NCBI GenBank assembly: GCA_945897965.1
Contig: CAMDHK010000001.1
Location: 16,231 to 80,230, forward strand
Direction of reading: 5' to 3'
Origin: Candidatus Kuenenia stuttgartensis
GTDB lineage: Bacteria > Planctomycetota > Planctomycetia > Gemmatales > Gemmataceae
Length of the DNA stretch: 64,000 nucleotides
Numbering within the stretch: the first letter of the stretch is position 1; every line of letters starts with the position of its first letter. Shown in pieces: positions 4,049-64,000 of this stretch. The translations under genes and the position numbers were made by a program. Under the pieces are notes generated by a model. The model saw nothing but the letters and a program-made list of their open reading frames with translations, had not been told where the DNA came from and did not search any database.

Positions 4049-5272
4049 ATGAACTTATCGTTTCAACAATGGCTTATAGAATCAGGCTTTATTTGGGCCC
4101 AATTTTTAATCGCCATTCCTTGGATGATCACTCTTTTCTTCTCGGAAAATTACTCCAACGCCAAACCCAAAACTATTGCATTATTGGGCACATTGGCAAC
4201 CATGTTTATTCTAGGTGCGATTTTTCCCCCGATTTTTCATACCTTCCTCCAAGAAACCAATAGTATCGAAACCGCTGGTAGAGTTTACGGAGGGATCTTT
4301 CAAACACAGCTTATACTTGACACCTTTGTTCTTACTTTTTTTGTCCTACTCAAAATCTGGCCTAAGGGTGGTGCTGTTGCTCAAGCCGCTTTTCGTGAAG
4401 GCATCAGGCAACCTATGTTTTGGCTCCTTTCCAGCCTCGCACTTTTTGCTCTGCTTGTTTCACCTTTTATTCCTTACTTCACCTTCGGCGAAGATCTCAT
4501 TATGGTTAAGGAACTAGGCTACGACACCATAATGCTAGCAGCAGTGGTGTTCGGCACTTTGGCAGCCAGTATTTCCGTAAGTGAAGAAATCGAAGGCCGT
4601 ACCGCAGTCACACTCATGAGTAAACCCATTTCACGCAGGCAATTTCTTATCGGTAAATTTGTCGGTATTCTTCTTTCAGCTTTCCTCATGTCCTCGATTT
4701 TGTTTGTCATATTTCAATCCATCCTTCTTTACAAACATTGGCTCGACAGAATGGATCCTGTATCCAACCCCGAGTGGATCAAACTTTTTTTATCTAATTC
4801 AACTCTGCCATCCGAAACCAAAGACCTTATCAACGGGCTTGCCTTCTGGATACAACACACACTTGAAACCTTCCCAGGCCTAATTCTCAGCTTTTGCCAA
4901 GTCAGCGTTTTGGTTTCCATTTCCGTGTCGCTTGCAACTCGCTTGCCCATGGTTGTAAATCTTAGCACCGTACTCGTAATCTATTTTCTTGCACACCTGA
5001 CCCCTGTACTGGTTGCGATTGGCGAAAAAGCTAAAGCAACAGACCCTGATTCTCCAGTTTCGCGACTTCTTGGATTTATGGCGGGAGTCTTTGATTTATT
5101 CCTGCCAGGCTTGGAGTTTTTCCGGGTGGGACCAGCCATCGTTGGCGATACGCCTCCAGATTTTATACCCTTTGCTATTTATGTTTTATCCGTTAGTTTC
5201 TATGGATTAATTTACACCACAGTTGCACTTATTGTTGGCCTGATTTTGTTTGAAGATCGAGATCTGGCTTAG
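4049..5272 (+). CDS. ABC-2 type transporter permease-like polytopic membrane protein
   Basis: Multiple hydrophobic spans. The block SEEIEGRTAVTLMSKPISRRQFLIGKFVGIL matches the E-x-E-x-x-T ... P-x-SR ... GK pattern typical of ABC-2 permeases. A GAGG sits about 12 nt upstream of the ATG at 4049. Confidence 0.6.
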   Translation: MNLSFQQWLIESGFIWAQFLIAIPWMITLFFSENYSNAKPKTIALLGTLATMFILGAIFPPIFHTFLQETNSIETAGRVYGGIFQTQLILDTFVLTFFVLLKIWPKGGAVAQAAFREGIRQPMFWLLSSLALFALLVSPFIPYFTFGEDLIMVKELGYDTIMLAAVVFGTLAASISVSEEIEGRTAVTLMSKPISRRQFLIGKFVGILLSAFLMSSILFVIFQSILLYKHWLDRMDPVSNPEWIKLFLSNSTLPSETKDLINGLAFWIQHTLETFPGLILSFCQVSVLVSISVSLATRLPMVVNLSTVLVIYFLAHLTPVLVAIGEKAKATDPDSPVSRLLGFMAGVFDLFLPGLEFFRVGPAIVGDTPPDFIPFAIYVLSVSFYGLIYTTVALIVGLILFEDRDLA

Positions 5273-42495: not shown

Positions 42496-43644
42496 TTAAC
42501 TTTGGCTAAGCGCAACGCCATCAATAATCACACGATTAATCCGGAACGGTACATCCTTGTTGGAATCAAACAAGATCAAATTCGCCATGCTGCCTGCCTC
42601 AATTTTAATCTCTGGCAACTGAAGCAACCTTCTGGGCGCATTGGTTGCCATTTCGATTGCCTGACTTCTTGAAACAACCCCAAGAGAAATTAAATGAGCC
42701 ACACAATCATCAGTGAAAGAGCCTGAGCCCGCCAGAAAAGGTGTTCCGGGCACCACAACTTTTCCGCTTGATAATATTTCAATTTCCTGATCCCACATCG
42801 AATACTTTCCAGGAGGAAGCCCGGCAAGCCCACTGGCATCGCATGTAATTATTTGTTTTTCGAATGGCTTGACACGGACTATCGTTTTTATCAGCGCCTC
42901 GGGTAGGTGATGCCCATCAGTAATAATACTTGCAGACAAAGAATCACAACCGAGCTGCTCCCAAAAATAATTTTCATGCCTAGGCAACATGGCATGAGAT
43001 CCATTCCCTAAATGCGTGGAAAGCCGCGCACCCGCTCCAATTGCCTCACGAATAATCATGGGGCTTGCTGCAGTATGTCCAATGGAAACGACGACACCTT
43101 CAAGGTTCATTTTCTTTATAAAATCAATTGCACCCGGAAGCTCTGGCGCAAGTGTAAGTAATTTTATTCGATTGCCAGAGGCCTCCTGATACTCTTTAAA
43201 TTCGTCATAAATTGGATTGCGAACATGTTGTTTCTGATGGGCGCCCCTCGGACCATCTTCATTACTTATATAAGGCCCTTCCAGATGAAAGCAGGGCATG
43301 GCACGGGCAATCACAGGATCACTTTCACATGCTTTTCGAAGGGTACTAAAGCCATGAATCAGAACAGGATGGGAGTTTGTTATAATTGTTGGGCAAATTG
43401 CATCGATACCGTGCCGTTTGCAAACCGAAAGAACCTTTCTGATTCCACTTTCATCTAGGTTGATGTCACTAAAAGCCACACCCATAGCACCATTGATTTG
43501 CAAATCAAAAAACGCAGGAGCAATATATGAGCCCTGGTAATCAGGGACAAAGTTTCCTGCTTGTTCCACAGAAACAATTTTGCCATTGTTGCAACGTACA
43601 TCAACCATCTGTTCGGTTTGATAATGCTTTGCCCGAAAAATCAT
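42496..43644 (-). CDS. nagA: N-acetylglucosamine-6-phosphate deacetylase-like amidohydrolase
   Basis: Metal-dependent amidohydrolase pattern: FDLQINGAMGVAF, SIGHTAAS, THLGNGSH, ITDGHH. Its start overlaps the upstream kinase stop (ATGA). Confidence 0.75.
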   Translation of the reverse strand: MIFRAKHYQTEQMVDVRCNNGKIVSVEQAGNFVPDYQGSYIAPAFFDLQINGAMGVAFSDINLDESGIRKVLSVCKRHGIDAICPTIITNSHPVLIHGFSTLRKACESDPVIARAMPCFHLEGPYISNEDGPRGAHQKQHVRNPIYDEFKEYQEASGNRIKLLTLAPELPGAIDFIKKMNLEGVVVSIGHTAASPMIIREAIGAGARLSTHLGNGSHAMLPRHENYFWEQLGCDSLSASIITDGHHLPEALIKTIVRVKPFEKQIITCDASGLAGLPPGKYSMWDQEIEILSSGKVVVPGTPFLAGSGSFTDDCVAHLISLGVVSRSQAIEMATNAPRRLLQLPEIKIEAGSMANLILFDSNKDVPFRINRVIIDGVALSQS

Positions 43645-45188
43645 TTTTTCCCATCTCCGCCCGTTTGGTATGAGGGTGAAGTTTCATTTTCTTTTTTTGA
43701 GGATGCAAAGATGGCCAAAGCAACGATGCAACCGATTAAAGTAGCGAGGGCACCCAACCCGATTCCTGTTCCCAGAAATAGCAATTCATTTCGAGTGAAT
43801 CGAGATAAGTTAAAAGCTCCAACCGAGGCTGGCTTTGATTTTCTAATGGATTTTTTATACACGGGCTCGGGATTATCAAAAGCAAAATCATCAGCTTCTT
43901 TGGGCATACTAGATACAAATGTAACTGAATAATCGTCCTCAATACCGGGATCGCTTTCAGAATCTTGGCCATCGCTATTATCTGAGGGAGGGTCATAGAG
44001 TATTCCCTCTTCTTTTTTATTTTTAATCTTTTCTTTGAGGGCAGTTTTCGAAGTTTCAAGCCAAGTGAGATATTTTTTAAGCTTGTTTTCGGAATCGGGA
44101 GCAGAAGGTGAGACAAAAGGCCCCGAATTCAAAAAAATCGCAAGTGCTTGAGCACATTTTTCAGGCGTCTGGTAGCGATCTGATGGCTCCTTCGCAAGCA
44201 TTGTATTAATGATCTTATTCAATCCCTCAGGAACCTTGGGATTAAATTGACTAGCAGGCTTTGGAGTTTCAGTTTGATGCCTGATAATTTGGTTAATAAT
44301 ATTGGTATCTGGGAAGGGGGGTTGACCTGTCAACAAGTGATACAGAACACACCCTAGTCCGTAAATATCTGCTCGAATATCAATATTTCGAGCATCCCGG
44401 GCCTGCTCGGGTGCCATGTAATCAGGAGTGCCCAAAATCGCCCCTTCATCGGTCAGGTTCAATGCGGTCACAACCTGATGCAGGGGTTCTTTATTCTTGG
44501 TGAGTTTACCCAAACCCATATCAAGAATTTTTAAAGTTTTATCCATCACCTTAGAAGTAAGAATTGGGCCTGCAAGCATCATATTTGCTGGCTTTAAATC
44601 TCGATGCACAAGCCCATGTTGATAAATACAATCCAGCCCCCGAAGCGCCTGATAAACAATATGGCAGGCTTCATCAGGAGGAACTTTACCACTCCGCTTT
44701 AAAAATTGGTCTAGTGTTTCACCCTCAAGGTAATCCATAACCATGTAATGAACACCGTTGTAAACTCCCGTTTCAAAAGTCCGAACAATATTTGGGTGAA
44801 TCAATTCCATGTTCATCTGAGCTTCACGGTGGAAGCGCATCAGGAAATTTTTTTCACGCGACTTAGATGGAGGCAGCACTTTTAAAGCAACAATTTGGCC
44901 TGTTTCATGCTCTGCTTTGTAAACACCGCCCATGCGGCCCGTTCCAAGCTTTTCCGAAATCTTGTAACTGTTTATAAAATATCCATCTGCATGGCCTTTG
45001 ATTAAAAGCTTAGCTTGGTATTCGGTCACGTACTTTCGGCTCACAAGCCAGTTAGCAAACTTTATCACATCGGATTGTGCAGTTTTCGATTCTTCTTTCC
45101 ATCGATCCAATACGATTTTCGCCTCATCAAGCTTCATCAGCTTGCTTCTCAAGATCAACCCATAAACATTATTAACAGTTAATTCCAT
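43641..45188 (-). CDS. Hanks-type Ser/Thr protein kinase with a C-terminal TM anchor
   Basis: Motifs: GTGRMGGVYKA, VALKVL, HRDLKPANMML, DMGLGK (a DFG variant), GTPDYMAPEQ. A C-terminal hydrophobic span (LLFLGTGIGLGALATLIGCIVALAIFA) is present. Confidence 0.9.
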   Translation of the reverse strand: MELTVNNVYGLILRSKLMKLDEAKIVLDRWKEESKTAQSDVIKFANWLVSRKYVTEYQAKLLIKGHADGYFINSYKISEKLGTGRMGGVYKAEHETGQIVALKVLPPSKSREKNFLMRFHREAQMNMELIHPNIVRTFETGVYNGVHYMVMDYLEGETLDQFLKRSGKVPPDEACHIVYQALRGLDCIYQHGLVHRDLKPANMMLAGPILTSKVMDKTLKILDMGLGKLTKNKEPLHQVVTALNLTDEGAILGTPDYMAPEQARDARNIDIRADIYGLGCVLYHLLTGQPPFPDTNIINQIIRHQTETPKPASQFNPKVPEGLNKIINTMLAKEPSDRYQTPEKCAQALAIFLNSGPFVSPSAPDSENKLKKYLTWLETSKTALKEKIKNKKEEGILYDPPSDNSDGQDSESDPGIEDDYSVTFVSSMPKEADDFAFDNPEPVYKKSIRKSKPASVGAFNLSRFTRNELLFLGTGIGLGALATLIGCIVALAIFASSKKENETSPSYQTGGDGKK

Positions 45189-45238
45189 AATAACCTAAAA
45201 ATTACTTTTCATGATGCTTTAGTATCTATAATACCTAC

Positions 45239-46060
45239 ATGAATTTAGATAGCGATCTTTTATTACTGGCAGAAAATCCAAATGCCAGTATTTGTTTAGA
45301 GACTCTGGCGCTCAGTCTTGCCTTAGATGAATATCCTAACTTGGATATTTCAGCCTACAAGTCTGAAATTGCAGCTTTTTCACATGGATGTAAACTTCCC
45401 GGGGGCACCGACCTTGAAGTTCGGGTTCGAGCCTTTGCCCGGTATTTATCACATGACCTTGGTTTTCATGGCAATAAAAACGATTATTATGACCCCCAAA
45501 ACAGCTACTTAAACCTTGTCATTGATCGTAGATTGGGTATCCCTATTTCTCTTTCAATTCTAGCAATTTGCATTGGAAAAAAGCTTGGACTTAGGCTTTT
45601 TGGCGTAGGACTTCCGGGGCACTTTGTAACCATGGCGTGCGAAGGAAACCATTCTGTTTATTTCGATGTTTTCAATGAGGGAAAAATCCTTTCACAAAGC
45701 GATTGTGAAAGCCTTTCATTTAAAGCCACAGGCGAACAGATCACCCTATCTGAAAATCATTTTTCGCCATTGCCCATGGCTTCGGTCATTATTCGCATGC
45801 TAACCAACCTTAAACTTATTTATTTTCGAAAAAATGATGTCCCAAGATCAATTCGTATTTTGAACAGACTCAGACAAATCGCCCCCAATGACCCATCACA
45901 AATGCGAGATTTAGGCGTGGCACTATTGCAAGCTGGCCACCCTGGCAAAGCTCTCATCAACCTTGAATCTTATACTCAATATGTACCCTCAGCCATCGAT
46001 GACAATGATATTCAAGCTTGGATCAAACAAGCTAGAAAAGATATTTCAAACAGAAACTAA
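45239..46060 (+). CDS. SirB1-like transglutaminase-fold/TPR protein
   Basis: The block NSYLNLVIDRRLGIPISLSILAICIGKKLGLRLFGVGLPGHFV matches the SirB1 (UPF0162) N-terminal family. The C-terminus is TPR-like. Confidence 0.6.
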   Translation: MNLDSDLLLLAENPNASICLETLALSLALDEYPNLDISAYKSEIAAFSHGCKLPGGTDLEVRVRAFARYLSHDLGFHGNKNDYYDPQNSYLNLVIDRRLGIPISLSILAICIGKKLGLRLFGVGLPGHFVTMACEGNHSVYFDVFNEGKILSQSDCESLSFKATGEQITLSENHFSPLPMASVIIRMLTNLKLIYFRKNDVPRSIRILNRLRQIAPNDPSQMRDLGVALLQAGHPGKALINLESYTQYVPSAIDDNDIQAWIKQARKDISNRN

Positions 46061-46074
46061 CAACGGGATTCACT

Positions 46075-46440
46075 ATGATTAAAGCTCTTTTGCTTATAGC
46101 GCACGGCAGCAGGAACAAGGAAGCTAACGAGGATTTGATTCATCTTGCAAAAAGGCTTGTTTCTAGCGAGCTTCAAATCGTTGAGCCATCCTATTTAGAA
46201 CTTGCTGAACCAGAAATTGAAACTGCGGGAGACACTTGCGTTGAAAAAGGCGCACAGTTGGTGATCATGGTGCCTTATTTTCTATCTGCAGGGATCCATG
46301 TTAGAAAAGACCTAATCGAATCTCTCGAACTATTAACTAAAAAGTATCCCGAAGTGCAGTTTAGACTTGCAGGACACCTCGGGCCACATCCCTTGCTTGA
46401 AACAATTATCCGTGAAAGAATCGAAGAGGCTCTTCGTTAA
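46075..46440 (+). CDS. CbiX/SirB-type sirohydrochlorin chelatase (short form)
   Basis: 121 aa. It has LLIAHGSR at the N-terminus and VPYFLSAGIHVRKD, typical of small CbiX chelatases. Confidence 0.7.
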   Translation: MIKALLLIAHGSRNKEANEDLIHLAKRLVSSELQIVEPSYLELAEPEIETAGDTCVEKGAQLVIMVPYFLSAGIHVRKDLIESLELLTKKYPEVQFRLAGHLGPHPLLETIIRERIEEALR

Positions 46441-47309
46441 AAATTCAGGGCAATTTCATAGACTTCCAGCGCATCCATGACCTGATCATTTCGGGTAAAC
46501 AATGCTGCTATTGCTGCGCGATGAATTTTCATCTTCAAATCTCCCACGCCAATTGCGCCATAGCAAATAACACCCTCCCGAACAACGCCTTTGTCCATCA
46601 CGCTGGTTCCCTCGATACCCATAGGCGGAACCGCGTTTAAATCAACAACCATTTTAATGCTGCTAACGGCCTGCCTAATTTTTTCAGGAAGGAGACAAAC
46701 GCCAGCGGCCCCCGTAGAGATTACTAGCTCCACCCCCTCTAATGCACTTTTTAATTCAACATCATTGGCAACCTGAATTGCAACCGGGGCAGGGCATTCC
46801 CCTATTTTCTTCCCTAATGAAACAATTGCTGATTGTGCTTTTTCAATAGTACGCGACGACAAATAAACCTTAGCACCAAGCTTGGCCAACAACAGCGCTG
46901 CTCTTTGACCGACAGGTCCGGTACCTGCAAGAATCAGTACTTTTTTATCTTTCAAATCAAGGTTTTTTGCTGCTATTCGAACCGCTGCGGCCGCGGTTGT
47001 ATTGCAACCATTTGCATCAAATAGCACTGATACCCGCAAGCCATATTCGGGGACCATGGCACCAAGAGCCTTGGCAAGTAATGCTTCACTTTTCTCAACA
47101 TTACCGCCGCCGATAAACAGGGCAGTATTTTTCAAATCTTTGGGACTGCGGGTAAAAATTGCGCCATGAACAAGATCTCTTACCTGATCGGGTTGCACAT
47201 TCGCATAGCTAAATAGTTCATTCACATTGGAATCTATAGCAACGACACGATCAAAGACACTCGCATGAGCATCAGGGTCAAGTTGGATTAGGATGGTTTT
47301 CTTTTCCAT
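46437..47309 (-). CDS. NAD(P)-dependent methylene-tetrahydromethanopterin dehydrogenase (MtdA/MtdB/MtdC family)
   Basis: 290 aa. N-terminus KTILIQLDPDAHASVFDRVVAID. Also present: FIGGGN, DANGCNTTAAAAV and the Rossmann loop LAGTGPVGQRAALLLAKLGAKV. By eye it is collinear with Methylobacterium MtdA. Confidence 0.8.
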   Translation of the reverse strand: MEKKTILIQLDPDAHASVFDRVVAIDSNVNELFSYANVQPDQVRDLVHGAIFTRSPKDLKNTALFIGGGNVEKSEALLAKALGAMVPEYGLRVSVLFDANGCNTTAAAAVRIAAKNLDLKDKKVLILAGTGPVGQRAALLLAKLGAKVYLSSRTIEKAQSAIVSLGKKIGECPAPVAIQVANDVELKSALEGVELVISTGAAGVCLLPEKIRQAVSSIKMVVDLNAVPPMGIEGTSVMDKGVVREGVICYGAIGVGDLKMKIHRAAIAALFTRNDQVMDALEVYEIALNF

Positions 47310-58697: not shown

Positions 58698-58771
58698 GGG
58701 CGCTTAGCTCAGTTGGCTAGAGCACCAGCTCGACACGCTGGGGGTCACAGGTTCGAATCCTGTAGCGCCCA
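58698..58771 (+). tRNA. tRNA-Val (anticodon GAC), no encoded CCA
   Basis: Manual cloverleaf fold: perfect 7-bp acceptor GGGCGCT/AGCGCCC, D-arm GCTC/GAGC, anticodon stem CCAGC/GCTGG with loop TCGACAC, variable loop GGGTC, and T-arm ACAGG-TTCGAAT-CCTGT. It closely resembles E. coli tRNA-Val(GAC). Confidence 0.9.
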
Positions 58772-59101: not shown

Positions 59102-59893
59102 TTATTTTGTCCTCGCCAAACGAAAACCCCCGACGATAACTTGGTCCCCCGGCGTGAGATAATCATCCCTGCAAAAAGAACTAGCAGCCAATTCATCGCC
59201 TCGGAAAGACCCGCCGCGCAACACACGGTAGGTCCCCGTTCTTGGGCCCTTTGGATCTTGCACCAATCCCTTATAATAATCTGCTTTCCAATCTTCACAC
59301 CACTCCCACACATTCCCATGCATATCGTATAAGCCAAAGGCATTTGGCTGGTAACTCCCTACCGCTACCGGTTTGTCTATTTTTGAGCCGCTATAATTTG
59401 CTTCCTTGGGCGTGATATTATCCCCAAACGAATACGCAGTTGTGGTTCCTGCCCTGCAAGAATATTCCCACTCAGCTTCCGTTGGCAATCTAAAACCACC
59501 CGTTGTCTTATCATTCAACTTCTTGATAAACTCCTGGCAATCATTCCACGAAACATTTGTAATCGGCATATTTTCGCCTTTGTTTCGTCTTGGGTCATTA
59601 CCCATTACTGCCTCCCACTGCTCCTGCGTTACCTCATACTTTCCCATGTAATACTGCTTCGTTAATGTTACCTCATGCTGTGGTTCTTTTTTTTCACGAC
59701 CTTTCGATCCCATTATGAACTTCCCCTCAGGAATTAACACCATCTCCAACTTCACATTTTTTTCAAGATCAATCACTTCTATCTTCCCGGGTTTCACTAC
59801 CTGCGCAAGTGTCTCCGCCTTTGCTTGCGGTGCCATTCCTTTGGAACAACCAACCAAACCTAACATCAAGACTGCGCCTAGTATTCTTTTCAT
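59102..59893 (-). CDS. FGE/SUMF1-fold (formylglycine-generating enzyme family) lipoprotein, probably non-catalytic
   Basis: Lipobox LMLGLVGCS. FGE-sulfatase fold motifs are present: RLPTEAEWEYSCRAGTTT, YDMHGNVWEWCEDW, RVLRGGSF. The paired-Cys active-site block of true FGEs is missing (see the finding at 60966-64000). Confidence 0.85.
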   Translation of the reverse strand: MKRILGAVLMLGLVGCSKGMAPQAKAETLAQVVKPGKIEVIDLEKNVKLEMVLIPEGKFIMGSKGREKKEPQHEVTLTKQYYMGKYEVTQEQWEAVMGNDPRRNKGENMPITNVSWNDCQEFIKKLNDKTTGGFRLPTEAEWEYSCRAGTTTAYSFGDNITPKEANYSGSKIDKPVAVGSYQPNAFGLYDMHGNVWEWCEDWKADYYKGLVQDPKGPRTGTYRVLRGGSFRGDELAASSFCRDDYLTPGDQVIVGGFRLARTK

Positions 59894-60303: not shown

Positions 60304-60389
60304 AGCTGAATTGCACCATGCCCTAAAGGCTCATTTCGAGTAAAACTTTTTTCCCAGCCAAGTGGCTATTTCAAAAGCCGATATCACCT

Positions 60390-60860
60390 TCACCATTTCC
60401 AATCCCCAAGTTGGGTGCCGATAAAATGCCGGACATGTTCAACAAAATCTGGTCCAAAGGAACGATTGCCGTGCCCTAACCCCGGCACCACATAAGCCTC
60501 ACCATCGGGAAACAATTTAGCGCAGGCTATTGCAGCCGCAGGTTTCACTAACGGATCATTCTCCCCAACTAAAAACCTTACCCTGCGATGCTTTTCAACT
60601 AGGTGCCGATAAGTCATAGGATTTGCCTGTTGGGTCAGATTGTCGCCTTTGCTAACGGCCTGAAGAACAGACAGAAAATCTAGCGCACCATCAACAATAG
60701 TGGGACCGGGGCCCAGAAAAACATTGGCAACCTTGCCAATCATCCTACCCAAAGGTGAGATTAATAGCGGTGTAATAAATGGTGTGTAGCTTCCCGTAAA
60801 ACCAACTAGGTCTGCGTGGCCAATGGTACCCAGCAAGCGAGAACCGATCCCAAACCTCAT
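60390..60860 (-). CDS. alpha/beta hydrolase fold protein, N-terminally truncated (possible pseudogene remnant)
   Basis: Only the C-terminal ~156 aa of the fold is present (FLVGENDPLV Asp region, PGLGHGN His region). The nucleophile-elbow position reads GHADLVG (Ser replaced by Ala). No Shine-Dalgarno is present. The frame runs upstream into the conserved flank repeat and stops there. Confidence 0.45.
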   Translation of the reverse strand: MRFGIGSRLLGTIGHADLVGFTGSYTPFITPLLISPLGRMIGKVANVFLGPGPTIVDGALDFLSVLQAVSKGDNLTQQANPMTYRHLVEKHRRVRFLVGENDPLVKPAAAIACAKLFPDGEAYVVPGLGHGNRSFGPDFVEHVRHFIGTQLGDWKW

Positions 60861-60891
60861 GAATGCATAGGAGGAAAGTAGCGTACCCCAG

Positions 60892-60965
60892 CTAGTGTCG
60901 TAGCTGGCACTTTAATTCCTGAGACAAAATTTGAAAACTTGTCATGTGAAAAATATTACTAGTAA
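60892..60965. repeat. conserved 74-nt 3' flank, copy B (paralogous to 59028-59101)
   Basis: Same element, immediately after the stop of the Hsp70-FGE fusion gene. This copy contains a 7-bp hairpin CCAGCTA-GTGTCG-TAGCTGG that is not conserved in copy A. Confidence 0.85.
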
Positions 60966-63380
60966 TTATTTTGTCCACGCCAAACGAAACCCGGAGGAGA
61001 GACTAAAGAACCGACCGGTCGGCGTGCGCGAGTTCCGGTAAGAAGAACGAGCATCCGATCCACCGACGTCGCAAGACCCGCCACGCAATATACGGTACTC
61101 TCCCGTCACTGTCCCCTTTGGGTCTGTTACCACACCCGCTGAATAGTAATCCCCGTACCAATCTTCACACCATTCCTCAACGTTTCCGTGCATATCGTAA
61201 AGTCCAAAAGCATTCGACTTGTAACTTCCTACAGCCTTAGGTGAATTAAAAACAAATAGAGTAAAAAAAGACACTAAAATACTTGAGGCATAGTTTGCAT
61301 CCTTGGGGGTGATATTATCCCCAAATGAATAAGCGGTGGTTGTTCCTGCCCTGCAGGCATATTCCCACTCAGCCTCCGTTGGAAGCCTGTAACCACCATT
61401 CGTCTTCGCATTCAACTTCTTTATGAACTCCTGGCAATCTTCCCATGAAACTCCGTGTACTGGTAATTTGGCACCTTTATTGCCACTAGGGTTATTTTCC
61501 ATCAATCCTTCCCATTGTTCTTGCGTTACAGTGTATATTCCTAAGTAAAAGCCTTTGGTAATAATCACCTTATGGGAAGTTTCATTTGAGTTACGGTATT
61601 CTTCTGATTCAGGCGAACCCATCATAAATGTGCCTGGTGGAATCCACGCAAATTTCATCCCCAATTCATTCGTTATAACCTCGCCTGCTTTTTGACCGAC
61701 ATCGTCTTGTGGTTTAACCGGGGGCGTCGGGCGAGAATCATAAAAAAGTTCCTTTGGCATCCCAAGAACCTCGGTCTCAATTTGACTTGCCTGCTCCTTT
61801 GATAAACCCAACTCAGTACTTATGCGAGTCAAATTTTCCAGATCTTTAATTGTAAAATTATGGTTGCCGAGAAAATTCTTAGCCTTAACCTCCTCGCGGT
61901 ATCTTGACAGAATTTCTTTGAGCTTTTTTCCCTTTGGAATCCCAATAATCTCGGTCTCAATTTGACTTGCCTGCTCTTCTGATAAACCCAACTCTGCACT
62001 TATACGAGTCAAATCTTCAAGATCTTTAATTGTAAAATTATGGTTACCGAGAAAATTCTTAGCCTTAACCTCCTCACGGTATCTTGACAGAATTTCTTTG
62101 AGCTTTTGTTCTTGGCATAAATCGTAAAAAAGCTCCTTTGGCATTCCAAAAACCTCAGTCTCAATTCGACTTGCCTCCTCCTTTGACAAACCCAACTGAG
62201 CACTCAAGCGAGTCAAATCTTCCAGGTTTTTAATTGTATAATTCTGTTTGTCAATGAAGTTTTTAACTACCTCTCGGTATCTTTGAGGTTGTGGAGATTG
62301 CTTAGGTATAGTTTTTAATAGAGGTGTGGCTGCTCCGAGAACTGTGGCGTAATCAGAGTGATTCCATTGAAACACCCGTCCTGGAGCTAAGACCTCTATA
62401 GCTTCTTTAAGGCCAGAAAGACGGGAGCCCCCGCCAACTAAAAGTATAGGAATCTCATGGACCTTTACCACATTACTGCATCTGATCAAAAAACGCTTAA
62501 GTCCTTCAACCGTCTTTTCAATATACAGATGCCCACTATCTTTTACCGTCTTAAGAGGTACTTGTAAGGTAATCCCGTTCAAGGATATTGGCTTCTCGCT
62601 TGCTGGATGTCTGGCAAACAATTCCTTGGCCTGGCGGATTTTCACAAGAAAGGCTCCCCTAGAGTTTCTGGCGGAGTCTGCGTCATTGGTTCCGGCCTCT
62701 AGAACTCGGTCCAGAATCGATTCATCGATGTCGTTTCCCCCAGAGGGAAATCCATCCGTGGGTACATCGGGTACAGACTCGAACCTGCCTTTTTCATATC
62801 GCAACAATCCAAAATCGGTAGTCCCCCCCCCAGCATCACAAATTATCACATGATCTGTTGCTAATGTTTTGCCCGCCGTGGACAACCACGCCCTAGCCGC
62901 TGCTACTGGTTCCTCAATCAGCATGATTTGCTTAAAACCAGCAAGCTCAGCAGCCTTACGAATACAATCACGTTGTTTTTCTTCAAAAGAAACGGGGACA
63001 GTCAAAGTGCAAATGTTAAGGTTGATGTTCTTTTCAAGAAAAACTTCTTTCTGACACAACCGGCGAATTAACGAAAAAATATCACTGGCCAATTGAACGC
63101 GCTCGATAGGGGGGCGCCCAGGACCACAACGAACCATGCCCGTTCGATGAATTTCCTTTTTTAAGCCTATTACAATGCCTTCGGGATCGTGGTCTACCAT
63201 CATTAGTGCGTCATCGCCTACCAAGCGATCGCCTTCTTTTGGGATGTAAAAAACCGAAGGAATGATGGCCCTAATTTCTTGGCCCAACTCGATCAACTGG
63301 GGCTCATTCTTGCTGGAATCAAAATAGGCCACCTTTGTCCGGGTGGAACCAAAATCAATAGCAAGACCTAGCGGCTCCAT
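60966..63380 (-). CDS. Hsp70-like ATPase domain / triple helical repeat / FGE-fold domain fusion protein
   Basis: Residues 1-350 form an actin-fold Hsp70 NBD (AIDFGSTRTKVAY, EPVAAA, IICDAGGGTTDFG, ILLVGGGSRL) with no substrate-binding domain. Residues 367-549 are three 60-66-aa repeats. Residues ~570-804 form an FGE-sulfatase fold (RLPTEAEWEYACRAGTTT, YDMHGNVEEWCEDW, RILRGGS). Confidence 0.85.
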   Translation of the reverse strand: MEPLGLAIDFGSTRTKVAYFDSSKNEPQLIELGQEIRAIIPSVFYIPKEGDRLVGDDALMMVDHDPEGIVIGLKKEIHRTGMVRCGPGRPPIERVQLASDIFSLIRRLCQKEVFLEKNINLNICTLTVPVSFEEKQRDCIRKAAELAGFKQIMLIEEPVAAARAWLSTAGKTLATDHVIICDAGGGTTDFGLLRYEKGRFESVPDVPTDGFPSGGNDIDESILDRVLEAGTNDADSARNSRGAFLVKIRQAKELFARHPASEKPISLNGITLQVPLKTVKDSGHLYIEKTVEGLKRFLIRCSNVVKVHEIPILLVGGGSRLSGLKEAIEVLAPGRVFQWNHSDYATVLGAATPLLKTIPKQSPQPQRYREVVKNFIDKQNYTIKNLEDLTRLSAQLGLSKEEASRIETEVFGMPKELFYDLCQEQKLKEILSRYREEVKAKNFLGNHNFTIKDLEDLTRISAELGLSEEQASQIETEIIGIPKGKKLKEILSRYREEVKAKNFLGNHNFTIKDLENLTRISTELGLSKEQASQIETEVLGMPKELFYDSRPTPPVKPQDDVGQKAGEVITNELGMKFAWIPPGTFMMGSPESEEYRNSNETSHKVIITKGFYLGIYTVTQEQWEGLMENNPSGNKGAKLPVHGVSWEDCQEFIKKLNAKTNGGYRLPTEAEWEYACRAGTTTAYSFGDNITPKDANYASSILVSFFTLFVFNSPKAVGSYKSNAFGLYDMHGNVEEWCEDWYGDYYSAGVVTDPKGTVTGEYRILRGGSCDVGGSDARSSYRNSRTPTGRFFSLSSGFRLAWTK
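61734..62282. repeat. in-frame tandem repeat, three units (two of exactly 180 nt, about 93 percent identical)
   Basis: 61751-61927 aligned to 61931-62107 gives about 12 mismatches over about 177 nt by manual count. A third, more divergent unit follows at 198-nt spacing. Each unit encodes R-Y-R-E-E-V-K-A-K-N-F-L-G-N-H-N-F-T-I-K-D-L-E-D-L-T-R-I-S-A-E-L-G-L-S-x-E-Q-A-S-Q-I-E-T-E. Confidence 0.9.
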
Positions 63381-63382
63381 GA

Positions 63383-64000
63383 TTATAATTCCTTTCGTGA
63401 GTCATCTTGTTCCAATTGGTCTGCCATTTGGCTGAGCCGAAGGACTGCATGGTCAAATAGCAAGCCAAGGCCGGGCTGCGTATTGGACTTTTGACGCCGA
63501 GCCCTCTCGATGTTTCGCTCAATATCATTTACGGTAACACTTTCCCTACCCGGGCCAAGTAAAGGTGCCAACCGATCGAGAAGGGCGGGGCCGTTATTCC
63601 CAAACAAACCACGCAAAATGCGGGTCCAATCTTCTCCCAGCTCCGTTTGCGCTTCCTCCGCCTTTTCCAACATGCGTAGATCGCCCTCCATGTCATCGTA
63701 TGCATCTTTGATCAATAGGACCTTCTCCCCCAAGCGTCGAAGTGTCTCCGTAGCATTGCGCACATCGTCTTCCACGAAACGGATTGTTTCTTCGATATAC
63801 CGTTGAACCGGCTCAAGCTGATGGGCACCATTTGCAATCGCTGCAACCAAAGGACTAATTGAATCCTGGGCTTCTTTTTGAAGGATGCCAAAACGAATCT
63901 TGTGGTTACGAAGCCGCCCTGAAGCGATTTGACATGGTTCCCAAGCTTTGGACAAAATGCTTAACGCTTTAATCGTTCGCGACCTTGCAAAAAAACGATC
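63383..64000 (-). CDS. hypothetical helical protein tightly coupled to the Hsp70-FGE gene; 5' end probably outside the window
   Basis: The frame stays open from 63955 to the window edge. Its stop lies 2 nt before the Hsp70-like gene start. The sequence is charged and helical (EETIRFVEDDVRNATETLRRLGEKVLLIKDAYDDMEGDLRMLEKAEEAQTELGE). No motif recognised. Confidence 0.55.
   Translation of the reverse strand, partial: DRFFARSRTIKALSILSKAWEPCQIASGRLRNHKIRFGILQKEAQDSISPLVAAIANGAHQLEPVQRYIEETIRFVEDDVRNATETLRRLGEKVLLIKDAYDDMEGDLRMLEKAEEAQTELGEDWTRILRGLFGNNGPALLDRLAPLLGPGRESVTVNDIERNIERARRQKSNTQPGLGLLFDHAVLRLSQMADQLEQDDSRKEL

What the first reader, a model, noticed from the sequence alone, without database searches (positions are those of the whole stretch)
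60966..64000. Hsp70 ATPase-domain / repeat / non-catalytic FGE-fold fusion with a coupled helical partner: candidate uncharacterised chaperone-like or sensor system
The 804-aa protein has a complete actin-fold Hsp70 nucleotide-binding domain but no Hsp70 substrate-binding domain. In its place are three helical ~60-aa repeats and an FGE/SUMF1-fold domain. That domain lacks the paired-Cys active-site block of true formylglycine-generating enzymes (RILRGGSCDVGGSDARSSYRNSR instead of the RGGS-x-LC-x-x-SYC-x-RYR type). The FGE fold therefore probably acts as a ligand-binding module under ATPase control. The upstream gene ends 2 nt before this one and encodes a charged helical protein, possibly an exchange-factor or co-chaperone analogue. 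The system may continue beyond the window edge. FGE-fold domains fused to kinases and caspase-like proteins are widespread in Planctomycetes and cyanobacteria. To my knowledge they are functionally unexplained.
Basis: partly seen in the sequence, partly recalled or inferred. Interest (0 to 1): 0.7.

Follow-up and report, generated by a model that had tools for sequence, protein, structure and literature searches.

The report
Dynamin-pair operon with sensor-tipped Hsp70 ATPase
The Hsp70–FGE fusion is real, but its "helical partner" is the tail of a dynamin-like GTPase, and the gene is the last member of a widespread, uncharacterised four-gene membrane cassette whose Hsp70-like ATPase carries a swappable binding domain.

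Summary
It has a complete Hsp70 nucleotide-binding domain (NBD) with no substrate-binding domain, three ~60-aa helical repeats, and an FGE-fold domain lacking the catalytic Cys pair.

The "coupled helical partner" is not a small co-chaperone. Its reading frame runs off the window. Two metagenome contigs of the same organism show it is the last 205 residues of a 567-aa dynamin-like GTPase.

The full operon is C39-like cysteine peptidase, DLP1 (membrane paddle), DLP2, then Hsp70NBD-X. In this genome a membrane-anchored J-protein lies upstream. The cassette recurs in Planctomycetota, Myxococcota, Verrucomicrobiota, Proteobacteria and Cloacimonadota, and all catalytic motifs are conserved.

X is hypervariable: TM anchor, Sel1, TPR, ankyrin, WD40, Lcl_C or FGE. 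Orthologues 85-97% identical in the NBD carry a TM tail where the window carries FGE, a clean cassette replacement. In one relative, two Hsp70NBD-FGE genes are verified targets of a diversity-generating retroelement (DGR). The window's FGE has the same hypervariable-loop signature, but no retroelement was found.

Best reading: a membrane-associated Hsp70-type ATPase uses a swappable ligand-binding module to direct a dynamin pair, probably in envelope surveillance or anti-invader defence. Function is untested. I rate it a new variant of known kinds.

The parts
63383..64000 (-). 3' end (residues 363-567) of the DLP2 gene, a 567-aa LeoA/Cj-DLP2-like dynamin-family GTPase. It is truncated by the window edge.
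   Evidence: There is no in-frame stop up to base 64000. It is 100% identical to residues 363-567 of the 567-aa Dynamin_N protein on contigs L001/L002. The nearest PDB relative is Cj-DLP2, 5owv_C.
62301..63380 (-). Hsp70-type nucleotide-binding domain (aa 1-360) of the 804-aa protein. Catalytic residues D9, K74, E157, D182, G184-G186, T187 and D189 are present.
   Evidence: These residues are invariant or nearly so in family alignments A2 and A4.
61671..62294 (-). Three tandem ~60-aa helical units (aa 363-570) with the core motif LGLS-x-E-x-AS-x-IE-x-E-x-x-G. Each unit is modelled as three short helices plus a long connector.
   Evidence: TRF finds a 180-nt period and a self-alignment confirms the units. 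AF2 gives pLDDT mostly ~85-90. The same unit is found just after the NBD in 21 of 173 family representatives and in loci L015, L017, L018, L020 and L021.
60966..61670 (-). Non-catalytic FGE-sulfatase (C-type-lectin-like fold) domain, aa 571-804, plus the stop codon.
   Evidence: Pfam E=1.2e-43. The Cys pair is absent. The closest relatives are ~257-aa planctomycete FGE-family proteins at 62-68% identity.
60993..61073 (-). Hypervariable C-terminal loop (aa 770-796) at the position of the variable region of DGR-type lectin-fold proteins.
   Evidence: Identity to the sister strain is 46% over the last 30 residues (15 non-synonymous vs 2 synonymous codon changes), against about 90% in the best-conserved parts of the FGE core. 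Across the subfamily this stretch contains K/E/Q/M/W at 3.7% vs 25% in the core. In the window, 16 of 18 variable codons end in C/T vs 50% elsewhere, p=7e-4.
61242..61286 (-). Strongly hydrophobic insertion SSILVSFFTLFVFNS (aa 699-713) inside the FGE domain.
   Evidence: It is present only in the window protein and in sister-strain protein P0038, and absent from 45 aligned close FGE relatives. It is one of only two hydropathy peaks in the protein.
60896..61715 (-). The 820-nt replacement segment that carries the FGE module. It sits where orthologous contig L003 has 690 nt encoding a transmembrane tail and the 5' half of an alpha/beta-hydrolase gene.
   Evidence: BLASTN shows 87% identity to L003 on both sides of the segment and no match inside it. 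The segment has 0 SNPs against L040, while the flanks have 36.
60390..60860 (-). A 156-aa ORF that is the 3' half of an alpha/beta-hydrolase gene (338 aa in L003/L004). It is a remnant left by the cassette replacement.
   Evidence: It matches the profile built from the L003 hydrolase with E=2e-97, and DNA alignment places it on the 3' half of that gene. Pfam finds only the C-terminal part of Abhydrolase_1.

Best explanation
The 804-aa gene is the fourth gene of a conserved operon: C39-like cysteine peptidase, DLP1, DLP2, then an Hsp70-type ATPase that lacks a substrate-binding domain. DLP1 is a dynamin-like GTPase with a hydrophobic membrane paddle. DLP2 is a soluble dynamin-like GTPase.

The ATPase carries a C-terminal module that is exchanged freely between lineages. 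In this organism the module is a non-catalytic FGE/C-type-lectin-fold domain with a hypervariable binding loop.

**Proposed mechanism (inferred)**
1. The C-terminal module binds a specific ligand at the cytoplasmic face of the membrane.
2. Membrane association comes from the hydrophobic loop here, and from a TM tail in orthologues. In this genome a 2-TM J-protein encoded upstream may also contribute.
3. Ligand binding is coupled to the ATP cycle of the Hsp70-like domain.
4. That cycle recruits, activates or recycles the DLP1/DLP2 heterotypic complex, which remodels or seals the membrane at that site.
5. The peptidase processes a still unknown component.

The most likely biological role is envelope surveillance or anti-invader defence, with the swappable or diversified module setting specificity.

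**Shown versus inferred**
- Shown computationally: gene order, active-site conservation, module variability, DGR targeting in a relative, and loss of FGE catalysis.
- Inferred: the coupling between the parts and the biological role.
For: **Full operon.** It was recovered from contigs of the same organism. Window base 64000 corresponds to L001/L002 position 5226, and L002 has 8 mismatches over 7.4 kb. The genes are tightly packed: a 17-nt overlap between DLP1 and DLP2, and a 2-nt gap between DLP2 and the Hsp70 gene.

**Cassette conservation.**
- C39-DLP1-DLP2-NBD is found in metagenome loci down to 32% NBD identity.
- Of the 25 GTDB genome loci in which an NBD gene was called (29 loci retrieved), 20 have at least one DLP next to it.
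- Eleven of them have all three partner genes.
- The loci come from Planctomycetota, Myxococcales, Opitutaceae, Chromatiales, Cloacimonadota and Belnapia.

**Active sites.** The following are conserved over 20-23 loci:
- the C39 Cys/His/Asn-Asp residues;
- DLP motifs G1, G3 and G4.

The NBD catalytic residues are invariant.

**Variable C-terminus.**
- Modules seen include a TM tail, Sel1, TPR, ankyrin, cyclophilin+FGE, Lcl_C, zinc ribbons and WD40.
- A census of 57 family representatives gave Sel1 in 11, TPR in about 8 and FGE in 5.
- Several loci carry 2-3 paralogous NBD genes with different tips (L005, L022, L025, L026).

**Recent swap in this lineage.** Orthologues 85-97% identical in the NBD have a TM tail instead of FGE, with clean replacement junctions.

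**DGR link.** In L005 two NBD-FGE genes sit beside bAvd and a reverse transcriptase. All 19 template/variable-region mismatches inside the repeat fall at template adenines; the single exception (T->G) lies at its 3' edge. The window's loop carries the same compositional and codon signature.

**Membrane theme.** This appears in the DLP1 paddle, the 2-TM J-protein, the TM tails of orthologues and the hydrophobic insertion.

**Literature.**
- A two-dynamin operon homologous to the Leo genes protects against phage (10.1101/2022.05.11.491447).
- B. subtilis DynA does the same (PMC8844932).
- DnaK-domain genes downstream of cyanobacterial BDLPs have been noted (PMC5827413).
- FGS/FGE domains are discussed as non-enzymatic binders or sensors in conflict systems (PMC7159879, PMC12642450).
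Against: - No experiment exists on any member of the cassette.
- PADLOC matches are weak or partial: LeoBC 5.6e-19, LeoA 1.6e-7 over only 70 residues, and nothing for C39 or DnaJ.
- The window side of the locus is housekeeping and is not a defence island. It encodes Fur, an oxidoreductase, chorismate synthase and aspartate kinase.
- No recognisable toxin effector is present.
- The J-protein is found only in this genome's loci, so J-domain stimulation is not a general feature.
- No reverse transcriptase or template repeat lies within 69 kb, and none was found in JGI metagenome contigs. The loop is identical in a strain that differs at 36 other sites. Active diversification here is therefore not supported.
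- The FGE domain could not be modelled (pLDDT 49), so the surface position of the hydrophobic insertion and of the variable loop is not shown.
- The variable positions used for the codon test were chosen after looking at the alignment.
Confidence: 0.55

Rival explanations
1. Housekeeping reading. The cassette is a constitutive membrane-remodelling or repair machine. The Hsp70-like ATPase acts as a dedicated disassembly or recycling chaperone for DLP polymers, analogous to Hsc70/auxilin acting on endocytic coats. The C-terminal modules are targeting adaptors for different membrane sites or clients, not invader sensors.
For: - The flanks are housekeeping in the window and in L003, which has the isc operon, ferritin and gatB.
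- Several components are predicted to associate with the membrane: DLP1, the orthologues' TM tails and this genome's J-protein.
- A membrane J-protein with an intact HPD motif lies next to the cassette in this genome.
- All enzymes look active.
- Bacterial DLPs have documented repair and fusion roles (PMC6104087, PMC8844932).
Against: - The C-terminus turns over very fast, even between strains 85-97% identical in the NBD.
- Loci carry multiple paralogues with different tips.
- One relative is targeted by a DGR.
- Phyletic distribution is patchy, and several loci sit near mobile elements or toxin-antitoxin genes.
- These features are more typical of arms-race loci than of housekeeping machines.
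- The J-protein is not conserved with the cassette.
Confidence: 0.25
2. First reader's model. This is a two-gene chaperone-like system in which the small helical upstream protein is a nucleotide-exchange factor or co-chaperone for the Hsp70-FGE protein.
For: The 2-nt spacing and the conserved adjacency of the two genes.
Against: The upstream ORF is cut by the window edge and belongs to a 567-aa dynamin-family GTPase with conserved G1/G3/G4 motifs. The visible part gives no Pfam or NCBIfam match at all, to GrpE, BAG, DnaJ or anything else.
Confidence: 0.03
3. The FGE fusion is a non-functional by-product of a local rearrangement next to a tRNA integration hotspot, that is, a chimeric gene on its way to decay.
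For: - The replacement destroyed the downstream alpha/beta-hydrolase gene.
- The locus lies 2.2 kb from a tRNA-Val at which strains differ.
- The fusion is seen only in one narrow lineage.
Against: - The 804-aa frame is intact in four independent assemblies (L001, L002, L040, and L039 with a diverged copy).
- The hydrophobic insertion keeps its character in the diverged copy.
- NBD-FGE fusions arose in at least five other lineages: L005, L013, L016, L025, and 5 of 57 family representatives.
Confidence: 0.07
4. The FGE domain is a working formylglycine-generating or related oxidative enzyme (EgtB/PvdO-like). The Hsp70 domain chaperones its substrate, for example the many planctomycete sulfatases.
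For: There is strong FGE-sulfatase fold similarity and weak similarity to PvdO and EgtB models.
Against: - All NCBIfam scores are far below their cut-offs: PvdO 102 vs 500, EgtB 74 vs 360.
- The catalytic Cys pair is absent, and the lone Cys is not conserved.
- The would-be active-site stretch is the hypervariable loop.
- No sulfatase gene is in the operon.
Confidence: 0.03

Closest known systems
Paired bacterial dynamin-like proteins (E. coli LeoA/LeoBC and the two-dynamin anti-phage operon of Millman et al.; Campylobacter Cj-DLP1/2; B. subtilis DynA; mycobacterial IniA)
   Same: - There are two adjacent dynamin-family GTPase genes. One has a hydrophobic membrane segment and the other is soluble.
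- Motifs G1, G3 and G4 are conserved.
- The nearest solved relatives are IniA and Nostoc BDLP for DLP1, and Cj-DLP2 for DLP2.
- The Campylobacter operon also carries an HcpA-like gene (PMC6104087). From my own knowledge, HcpA is a Sel1-repeat protein, and Sel1 is the commonest module on the Hsp70-like partner here.
   Different: - This cassette always adds a C39-like peptidase upstream and an Hsp70-type ATPase with a variable tip downstream.
- PADLOC Leo profiles match only weakly.
- No function has been tested.
'Chaperone group' of cyanobacterial BDLPs (Jilly et al. 2018, PMC5827413)
   Same: A DnaK-domain protein is encoded directly downstream of a bacterial dynamin-like gene. That paper explicitly noted the link between a membrane remodeller and an Hsp70.
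   Different: - The group was described only in cyanobacteria and only as a neighbourhood class.
- As far as the passages I read show, the paper says nothing about loss of the substrate-binding domain, the variable C-terminal modules, the C39-like peptidase or the DGR link.
- I did not test whether the cyanobacterial proteins belong to the same NBD family.
NTP-dependent conflict systems of Kaur, Burroughs, Iyer and Aravind 2020 (PMC7159879), including DO-GTPase systems with HSP70 lacking the peptide-binding domain and FGS-domain effectors linked to DGRs
   Same: - The logic is the same: constant NTPase core genes plus a highly variable, mostly non-enzymatic module.
- That paper describes an Hsp70 domain without a peptide-binding domain next to paired GTPases.
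- FGS/FGE domains are always C-terminal and are sometimes diversified by a DGR.
- Planctomycetes are among the carriers.
   Different: - The GTPases here are dynamin family by Pfam, not DO-GTPases.
- GAP1 was not looked for, and none of the Pfam-annotated cassette genes is an obvious candidate.
- 'Dynamin' does not occur in that paper.
- In that paper FGS sits on the vWA component of vWA-MoxR systems, or is an effector of GAP1-N2 GTPase systems. It is not described on an Hsp70 domain.
DGR variable proteins with FGE/C-type-lectin fold (Treponema TvpA, PDB 2Y3C; Bordetella phage Mtd class)
   Same: - The fold is the same; TvpA hits with E=4e-20.
- The variable stretch lies at the extreme C-terminus and ends in G-F-R-L.
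- The amino-acid and codon bias is that expected from AAY-codon mutagenesis.
- A relative has a verified template repeat and reverse transcriptase.
   Different: - No reverse transcriptase or template repeat was found for the window gene.
- The loop is static between two strains.
- Fusion to an Hsp70 ATPase is not among the DGR target architectures in the papers I could search.
Canonical Hsp70 chaperones (DnaK, HscA) and SBD-less relatives such as E. coli YegD
   Same: The NBD is complete, has all catalytic residues and has the Hsp70 fold. In this genome a J-protein with an HPD motif is encoded nearby.
   Different: - There is no substrate-binding domain, no lid and no conserved hydrophobic linker.
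- All NCBIfam scores are far below the family cut-offs.
- The gene is in an operon with dynamins rather than with GrpE and DnaJ.

Membership tests
Hsp70/DnaK chaperones | Actin-fold nucleotide-binding domain with catalytic Asp/Lys/Glu/Asp-Gly-Gly-Gly-Thr residues | tested here: met
   Pfam HSP70 scores 2.3e-20. DnaK NBD 5obx aligns to residues 6-351. Foldseek's top 50 hits are all Hsp70 NBDs. D9, K74, E157, D182, G184-186, T187 and D189 are invariant or nearly so in family alignments.
Hsp70/DnaK chaperones | C-terminal substrate-binding beta-domain and helical lid | tested here: not met
   The HSP70 profile match ends at position 369 of 599. Residues 363-804 are helical repeats plus FGE.
Hsp70/DnaK chaperones | Conserved hydrophobic interdomain linker (DnaK VLLLD) | tested here: not met
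   The sequence after the NBD is GAATPLLKTIPKQSPQP. The family consensus shows no conserved residues there.
Hsp70/DnaK chaperones | Dedicated J-domain co-chaperone | tested here: inconclusive
   A 267-aa protein with a J-domain (HPD motif), two TM helices and a zinc ribbon ends 269 nt upstream of the cassette in this genome. No J-domain was found in the other ~35 loci, apart from an unrelated HscB.
Hsp70/DnaK chaperones | GrpE-type nucleotide-exchange factor in the system | not tested
   No GrpE profile was run on the loci. None of the Pfam-annotated neighbours is GrpE.
Formylglycine-generating enzymes (SUMF1/FGE) | FGE-sulfatase fold | tested here: met
   PF03781 scores E=1.2e-43 over residues 578-802. 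Human FGE structures score E~3e-21.
Formylglycine-generating enzymes (SUMF1/FGE) | Catalytic (copper-binding) Cys pair, human Cys336 and Cys341 | tested here: not met
   The two alternative alignments place the single Cys770 opposite either Tyr or Cys336, and never give a partner for Cys341. Cys770 is Phe in the sister strain and in most relatives.
DGR variable proteins (FGE/C-type-lectin class) | Lectin-like fold with a variable region at the C-terminal end | tested here: met
   TvpA (2y3c) hits at 4.4e-20. The hypervariable stretch lies between RGGS and GFRL.
DGR variable proteins (FGE/C-type-lectin class) | Variability pattern of adenine mutagenesis (AAY-derived residues, NNY codons) | tested here: met
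   K/E/Q/M/W make up 3.7% of the stretch vs 25% of the core (p=1.5e-58). 16 of 18 variable codons end in C/T vs 50% elsewhere (p=7e-4). The positions were chosen by eye.
DGR variable proteins (FGE/C-type-lectin class) | Cognate template repeat with reverse transcriptase and Avd | tested here: not met
   No reverse transcriptase or second copy lies in the window plus 5 kb. A degenerate template-repeat pattern found only the variable region itself in JGI metagenome contigs. The feature is met in relative L005.
Paired bacterial dynamin-like proteins / Eleos (LeoA-LeoBC) | Two adjacent Dynamin_N GTPases with intact G motifs | tested here: met
   Dynamin_N scores 1.8e-18 and 5.7e-18. G1, G3 and G4 are invariant in 20-23 loci.
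Paired bacterial dynamin-like proteins / Eleos (LeoA-LeoBC) | One partner with a membrane-inserting hydrophobic segment | tested here: met
   DLP1 residues ~495-535 exceed the hydropathy threshold, while DLP2 has no such segment. This rests on hydropathy only.
Paired bacterial dynamin-like proteins / Eleos (LeoA-LeoBC) | Match to the LeoA and LeoBC defence-system profiles | tested here: inconclusive
   LeoBC matches at 5.6e-19 over most of DLP1. LeoA matches at 1.6e-7 over only residues 12-81 of DLP2.
Paired bacterial dynamin-like proteins / Eleos (LeoA-LeoBC) | Protection against phage | not testable with these tools
   This needs an experiment.
DO-GTPase/GAP1 conflict systems (Kaur et al. 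2020) | GTPases of the DO-GTPase family | tested here: not met
   Pfam assigns both GTPases to Dynamin_N, with no DO-GTPase1/2 hit. A weak DO-GTPase hit occurs only on an extra gene in L008.
DO-GTPase/GAP1 conflict systems (Kaur et al. 2020) | GAP1 component | not tested
   No GAP1 profile was available or run.

The most novel reading that the evidence does not exclude
The C39-DLP1-DLP2-Hsp70NBD-X cassette is an undescribed, widespread class of bacterial membrane immunity or surveillance machine. In it an Hsp70 ATPase that has lost its substrate-binding domain plays the role of an NLR-like receptor. Its swappable, and in some lineages DGR-diversified, tip recognises an invader or a damage cue. 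The ATP cycle then licenses a dynamin pair to act on the membrane. This would be a prokaryotic counterpart of the Hsc70/J-protein-dynamin axis and of Mx-type antiviral dynamins.
Probability: 0.3. Interest if true: 0.8.

Novelty: new variant of a known kind. Interest (0 to 1): 0.6.

Why it matters
- **Partners for bacterial dynamins.** Bacterial dynamin pairs are known to protect against phage and membrane damage. How they are targeted and switched on is unknown. This cassette supplies candidate answers: a dedicated Hsp70-type ATPase with an exchangeable recognition module, and a conserved cysteine peptidase.
- **A new job for the Hsp70 ATPase domain.** It would show the domain reused as a signalling or adaptor switch rather than as a protein-folding engine.
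- **A new class of DGR target.** It adds an ATPase-linked, cytoplasmic or membrane-proximal class of targets for diversity-generating retroelements.
- **Testability.** A cultured carrier exists (Aporhodopirellula aestuarii ICT_H3.1, locus L020), and the cassette is only about 7 kb.

Tried and rejected
- **Homologues of the repeat region.** A word-indexed search with the three-repeat region returned a single fragment. I could not learn from it which other architectures carry the unit. A local HMM found the unit in 21 of 173 family representatives.
- **Structure of the FGE domain.** AF2 failed twice: pLDDT below 50 within the full-length model and 49 for the domain alone with 47 close relatives. 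I therefore ran no fold search on it, and the positions of the hydrophobic insertion and the variable loop remain unmodelled.
- **Search for a DGR acting on the window gene.**
  - tblastn with the L005 reverse transcriptase and Avd found nothing.
  - BLASTN of the 3' end of the gene found only the 70%-identical paralogue.
  - A template-repeat pattern scan of JGI metagenome contigs found only another copy of the variable region.
- **J-domain conservation.** A J-domain HMM hit only this genome's loci and an unrelated HscB. I dropped the J-protein from the conserved core.
- **PADLOC.** It gave only weak Leo hits and a marginal PDC-M61B hit to the NBD. I do not call this a known defence system.
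- **C39-like peptidase.** It has no significant sequence match in the PDB.
- **Literature.** Searches for the dynamin + Hsp70 + peptidase or DGR combination returned only Jilly 2018 and Kaur 2020 as relevant.
- **Catalytic FGE and NEF-partner readings.** Both were considered and rejected (see the rival explanations).

Full report
**1. What is in the window**

The minus-strand ORF at 60966-63380 encodes 804 aa. It has three parts.

- **Residues 1-355: a complete Hsp70-type nucleotide-binding domain (NBD).**
  - Pfam HSP70 scores E=2.3e-20, and the match ends at profile position 369 of 599.
  - TIGR HscA aligns to residues 6-351.
  - The DnaK NBD structure 5obx aligns to residues 6-351.
  - In an AF2 model this part has pLDDT above 90 in most 10-residue blocks. 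All of the top 50 Foldseek PDB hits are Hsp70 NBDs, with TM-score up to 0.74 on the target. None is MreB, FtsA or actin.
  - There is no substrate-binding domain.
- **Residues 363-570: three ~60-aa helical units.**
  - TRF finds a 180-nt period at 93% identity for two copies.
  - A third, more divergent copy appears in a self-alignment.
  - AF2 models the units as helical with pLDDT mostly ~85-90.
- **Residues 578-802: an FGE-sulfatase domain (E=1.2e-43).**
  - Aligned to human FGE, the stretch GGSCDVGGSDARSSYR offers at most one Cys for the Cys336/Cys341 pair.
  - That Cys is Phe in a sister strain and in most close relatives.

**2. The 'partner' is the tail of a dynamin**

The upstream ORF ends 2 nt before the ATG. 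Its frame contains no stop codon up to base 64000. An exact-protein look-up of the 804-aa product returned two metagenome contigs, L001 and L002. Window base 64000 corresponds to position 5226 in both. L002 differs from the window at 8 of 7433 bases.

On these contigs the upstream gene is 567 aa. The window holds only residues 363-567. The protein is a dynamin-family GTPase: Pfam Dynamin_N scores 5.7e-18, and its nearest solved relative is Campylobacter Cj-DLP2.

Upstream of it, in order, lie:
- **DLP1**, 649 aa. Dynamin_N scores 1.8e-18 and PADLOC LeoBC 5.6e-19. The nearest structures are IniA and Nostoc BDLP. A strongly hydrophobic segment spans residues ~495-535.
- **A C39-like cysteine peptidase**, 294 aa (Pfam Peptidase_C39_2).
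- **A J-protein**, 267 aa, separated by a 269-nt gap. It has a J-domain with the HPD motif, two predicted transmembrane helices and a C-terminal zinc ribbon.

DLP1 and DLP2 overlap by 17 nt. Only 25 nt separate the peptidase gene from DLP1. The four genes therefore look like one operon.

**3. The cassette is conserved and widespread**

- Contigs carrying NBD homologues at 88%, 47% and 32% identity show the same order, C39-DLP1-DLP2-NBD. A contig with a 36%-identical homologue (L005) carries the cassette too (see section 5).
- A scan of one genome per GTDB species returned 29 loci.
  - An NBD gene was called in 25 of them.
  - In 20 of those 25, at least one DLP lies beside the NBD gene.
  - In 11, all three partner genes are present.
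- The loci come from Planctomycetota (Rhodopirellula, Thermoguttaceae, Pirellulaceae, Aporhodopirellula aestuarii), Myxococcales, Opitutaceae, Chromatiales, Cloacimonadota and Belnapia.
- Active sites are conserved:
  - peptidase Cys61 in 19 of 21 loci;
  - peptidase His161 and Asn181-Asp182 in 21 of 21;
  - G1, G3 and G4 motifs of both DLPs essentially invariant over 20-23 loci.
- The NBD catalytic residues are invariant or nearly so in alignments of 35 and 57 family members.
- A profile search of 1.84 billion cluster representatives gave 5,244 hits at E<1e-30. That number also includes ordinary Hsp70s.
- The best 150 hits all score E<1e-87. They are 220-1477 aa long, with the NBD at the N-terminus in almost all.
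- The J-protein is not part of the conserved core. A J-domain HMM hit only this genome's contigs and an unrelated HscB.

**4. The C-terminal part is a swappable module**

- Orthologues 85-97% identical in the NBD (P0002-P0005) have the same three helical units. They are followed by a transmembrane tail rather than FGE.
- At the DNA level the replacement is clean:
  - Window 61716-63999 matches contig L003 at 87%.
  - Window 60372-60895 also matches at 87%.
  - Between them, the window has 820 nt carrying the FGE module.
  - In the same place L003 has 690 nt encoding the TM tail and the 5' half of an alpha/beta-hydrolase gene.
  - The 156-aa ORF at 60390-60860 is the leftover 3' half of that hydrolase.
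- Other family members carry TPR, ten Sel1 repeats, ankyrin repeats, cyclophilin plus zinc ribbons plus FGE, Lcl_C, or double zinc ribbons.
- Some have a transmembrane helix followed by Big_2-like, pilin-like or FGE domains that would then lie outside the cytoplasm.
- A Pfam census of 57 family representatives found Sel1 in 11, TPR in about 8, FGE in 5, and beta-helix, GYF and ankyrin in 2 each, plus WD40 in 1.
- Several loci hold two or three NBD paralogues with different tips.
- A sister strain (L039) has the same NBD-repeat-FGE architecture. Its identity to the window is mosaic:

| Region | Amino-acid identity to the window |
|---|---|
| NBD (overlapping part, aa 259-348) | 93-100% |
| Repeats | 57-77% in the first two units, 87-90% in the third |
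| FGE core | 73-93% |
| Last 30 residues | 46% |

- Another contig (L040) differs from the window at 36 sites in 3.1 kb, with none inside the FGE segment.
- Together this points to module exchange by recombination.

**5. What the FGE domain is**

- Its closest relatives are thousands of ~257-aa planctomycete FGE-family proteins at 62-68% identity. One is the lipoprotein encoded 1 kb downstream at 59102-59893.
- In this subfamily the core is very conserved.
- The stretch between RGGSF and GFRLARTP is hypervariable on a fixed scaffold: xxxx-S-x-ARSS-x-R-xxx-TPxxR-xxxx.
- Its composition almost excludes K, E, Q, M and W: 3.7% against 25% in the core, p=1.5e-58. This is what mutagenesis of AAY codons by a diversity-generating retroelement (DGR) produces.
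- In the window gene, 16 of 18 variable codons end in C or T, against 50% in the rest of the gene (p=7e-4). I chose the variable positions by eye.
- Contig L005 gives a direct link.
  - Two NBD-FGE genes, 36% identical to the window NBD, lie next to bAvd and a reverse transcriptase.
  - The template repeat differs from both variable regions only at template adenines within the repeat. One T-to-G difference lies at its 3' edge.
  - The same contig continues with C39-DLP1-DLP2 and a third NBD gene tipped with Sel1.
- For the window gene itself I found no reverse transcriptase or template repeat within 69 kb.
- None turned up in JGI metagenome contigs either.
- The loop is identical in L040.
- The domain is therefore a non-catalytic binding module of the DGR-target type. 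Active diversification in this organism is not shown.
- A hydrophobic insertion (SSILVSFFTLFVFNS, residues 699-713) is unique to the two Hsp70-fused versions among 47 aligned sequences.
- Because it appears in the lineage that lost the TM tail, it may be a membrane-dipping loop. This is inference only. Both attempts to model the domain failed.

**6. How it most likely works**

Shown computationally:
- a tightly packed, phylogenetically broad operon of three predicted active enzymes plus an Hsp70-type ATPase;
- predicted membrane association of several components;
- a recognition-type module on the ATPase that turns over quickly and is DGR-diversified in at least one lineage.

Inferred:
- The tip binds a ligand at the membrane.
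- The Hsp70-type domain converts this into a nucleotide-dependent change that recruits, activates or recycles the DLP1/DLP2 complex.
- The peptidase processes an unknown component.
- In this genome the 2-TM J-protein may stimulate the ATPase at the membrane.

A two-dynamin operon homologous to the Leo genes and B. subtilis DynA both protect against phage (10.1101/2022.05.11.491447, PMC8844932). The variability pattern here resembles arms-race loci. I therefore favour envelope surveillance or anti-invader defence, with confidence 0.55 for the overall model.

The main rival is a housekeeping membrane-remodelling machine with targeting adaptors (0.25). It is favoured by the housekeeping flanks in the window and in L003.

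**7. Relation to what is known**

- Jilly et al. 2018 noted a 'chaperone group' of cyanobacterial BDLPs with a DnaK-domain gene downstream.
- Liu et al. 2018 noted a DnaJ-like domain on the neighbour of Nostoc BDLP1 and an HcpA-like gene in the Campylobacter operon.
- Kaur et al. 2020 described HSP70 without a peptide-binding domain in DO-GTPase systems, and FGS domains with DGRs in vWA-MoxR systems. That paper never mentions dynamin.
- A 2025 preprint lists FGE among the sensors of protease-effector defence modules.
- I found no paper describing the C39-DLP-DLP-Hsp70NBD cassette, its variable tips or DGR targeting of an Hsp70 fusion. The library does not hold most subscription journals.
- By the membership tests the protein is:
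  - not a canonical Hsp70, because it has no SBD and no linker;
  - not an FGE enzyme, because it has no Cys pair;
  - not shown to be an active DGR target;
  - not part of a DO-GTPase system, because the flanking GTPases are dynamins.

**8. Verdict**

A sensor-like, non-catalytic FGE on an ATPase is supported. A helical exchange-factor partner and a two-gene system are not.
- The finding is best filed as one instance of a broader, uncharacterised dynamin-pair cassette.
- It is a new variant of known kinds, of moderate-to-high interest (0.6).

Noticed in passing
window 58698-58771 (+): A tRNA-Val(gac) gene lies exactly where contig L001 (same species) stops matching the window. Beyond it L001 carries HTH_17 and DUF3987 genes. 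This looks like a strain-variable integrative element inserted at the tRNA. L003 keeps the same tRNA 320 nt after its hydrolase gene.
   Followed up: partly
window 59102-59893 (-): A 263-aa FGE-fold lipoprotein with a lipobox signal (LVGC) is 57% identical to the FGE part of the fusion. It belongs to a very large planctomycete family of ~257-aa proteins with the same hypervariable C-terminal stretch. It is absent at this position in L003, so it is a second FGE insertion in this lineage.
   Followed up: partly
window 60390-60860 (-): The 156-aa ORF is only the 3' half of an alpha/beta-hydrolase gene that is intact (329-338 aa as called) right after the Hsp70 gene in L003/L004. It is probably a dead remnant.
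   Followed up: yes
L005 4288-10859: Two NBD-FGE genes have identical variable regions and flank a 235-aa unknown gene. A DGR (bAvd, reverse transcriptase, template repeat inside the called reverse-transcriptase ORF) follows. A second C39-like gene precedes the first NBD-FGE gene. A PIN/RHH toxin-antitoxin pair and a transposase lie just upstream.
   Followed up: partly
L040 (= window 60625-63744): A JGI contig 98.8% identical to the window has 36 SNPs. None lies in the 750-nt FGE segment. Eleven amino-acid changes cluster in NBD residues 51-84 and in the third repeat. This suggests recent acquisition or a sweep of the FGE module.
   Followed up: yes
L009 13521-18441: Three further dynamin-like genes and a sigma-70 region-4 protein lie a few kb downstream of the C39-DLP1-DLP2-NBD cassette.
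   Followed up: no
protein P0073 (999 aa): An Hsp70 match spanning both the NBD and most of the SBD (residues 2-540, profile positions 1-544 of 599) is fused in front of a second, family-type NBD (540-898) and a Sel1 repeat.
   Followed up: no
proteins P0002-P0005, P0014: The transmembrane tails of the orthologues are followed by a conserved short motif, K-(Y/K)-G-C-G or A-K-G-C-P. Its meaning is unknown; it could be a lipidation or metal site.
   Followed up: no
L008 1-16479: A DLP-NBD pair (387-aa NBD with no tip) is followed by a weak DO-GTPase-like gene. It sits among VapE-like, RadC, N6-methylase, DUF1257/DUF2997 and PD-(D/E)xK genes, so it is probably on a mobile element or prophage.
   Followed up: no
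window 43641-47309: A Ser/Thr protein kinase (43641-45188), a transglutaminase-like/TPR protein (45239-46060) and a methylene-tetrahydromethanopterin dehydrogenase (46437-47309) lie here. The last is consistent with a planctomycete origin of the window. They are ordinary genes unrelated to the finding.
   Followed up: no
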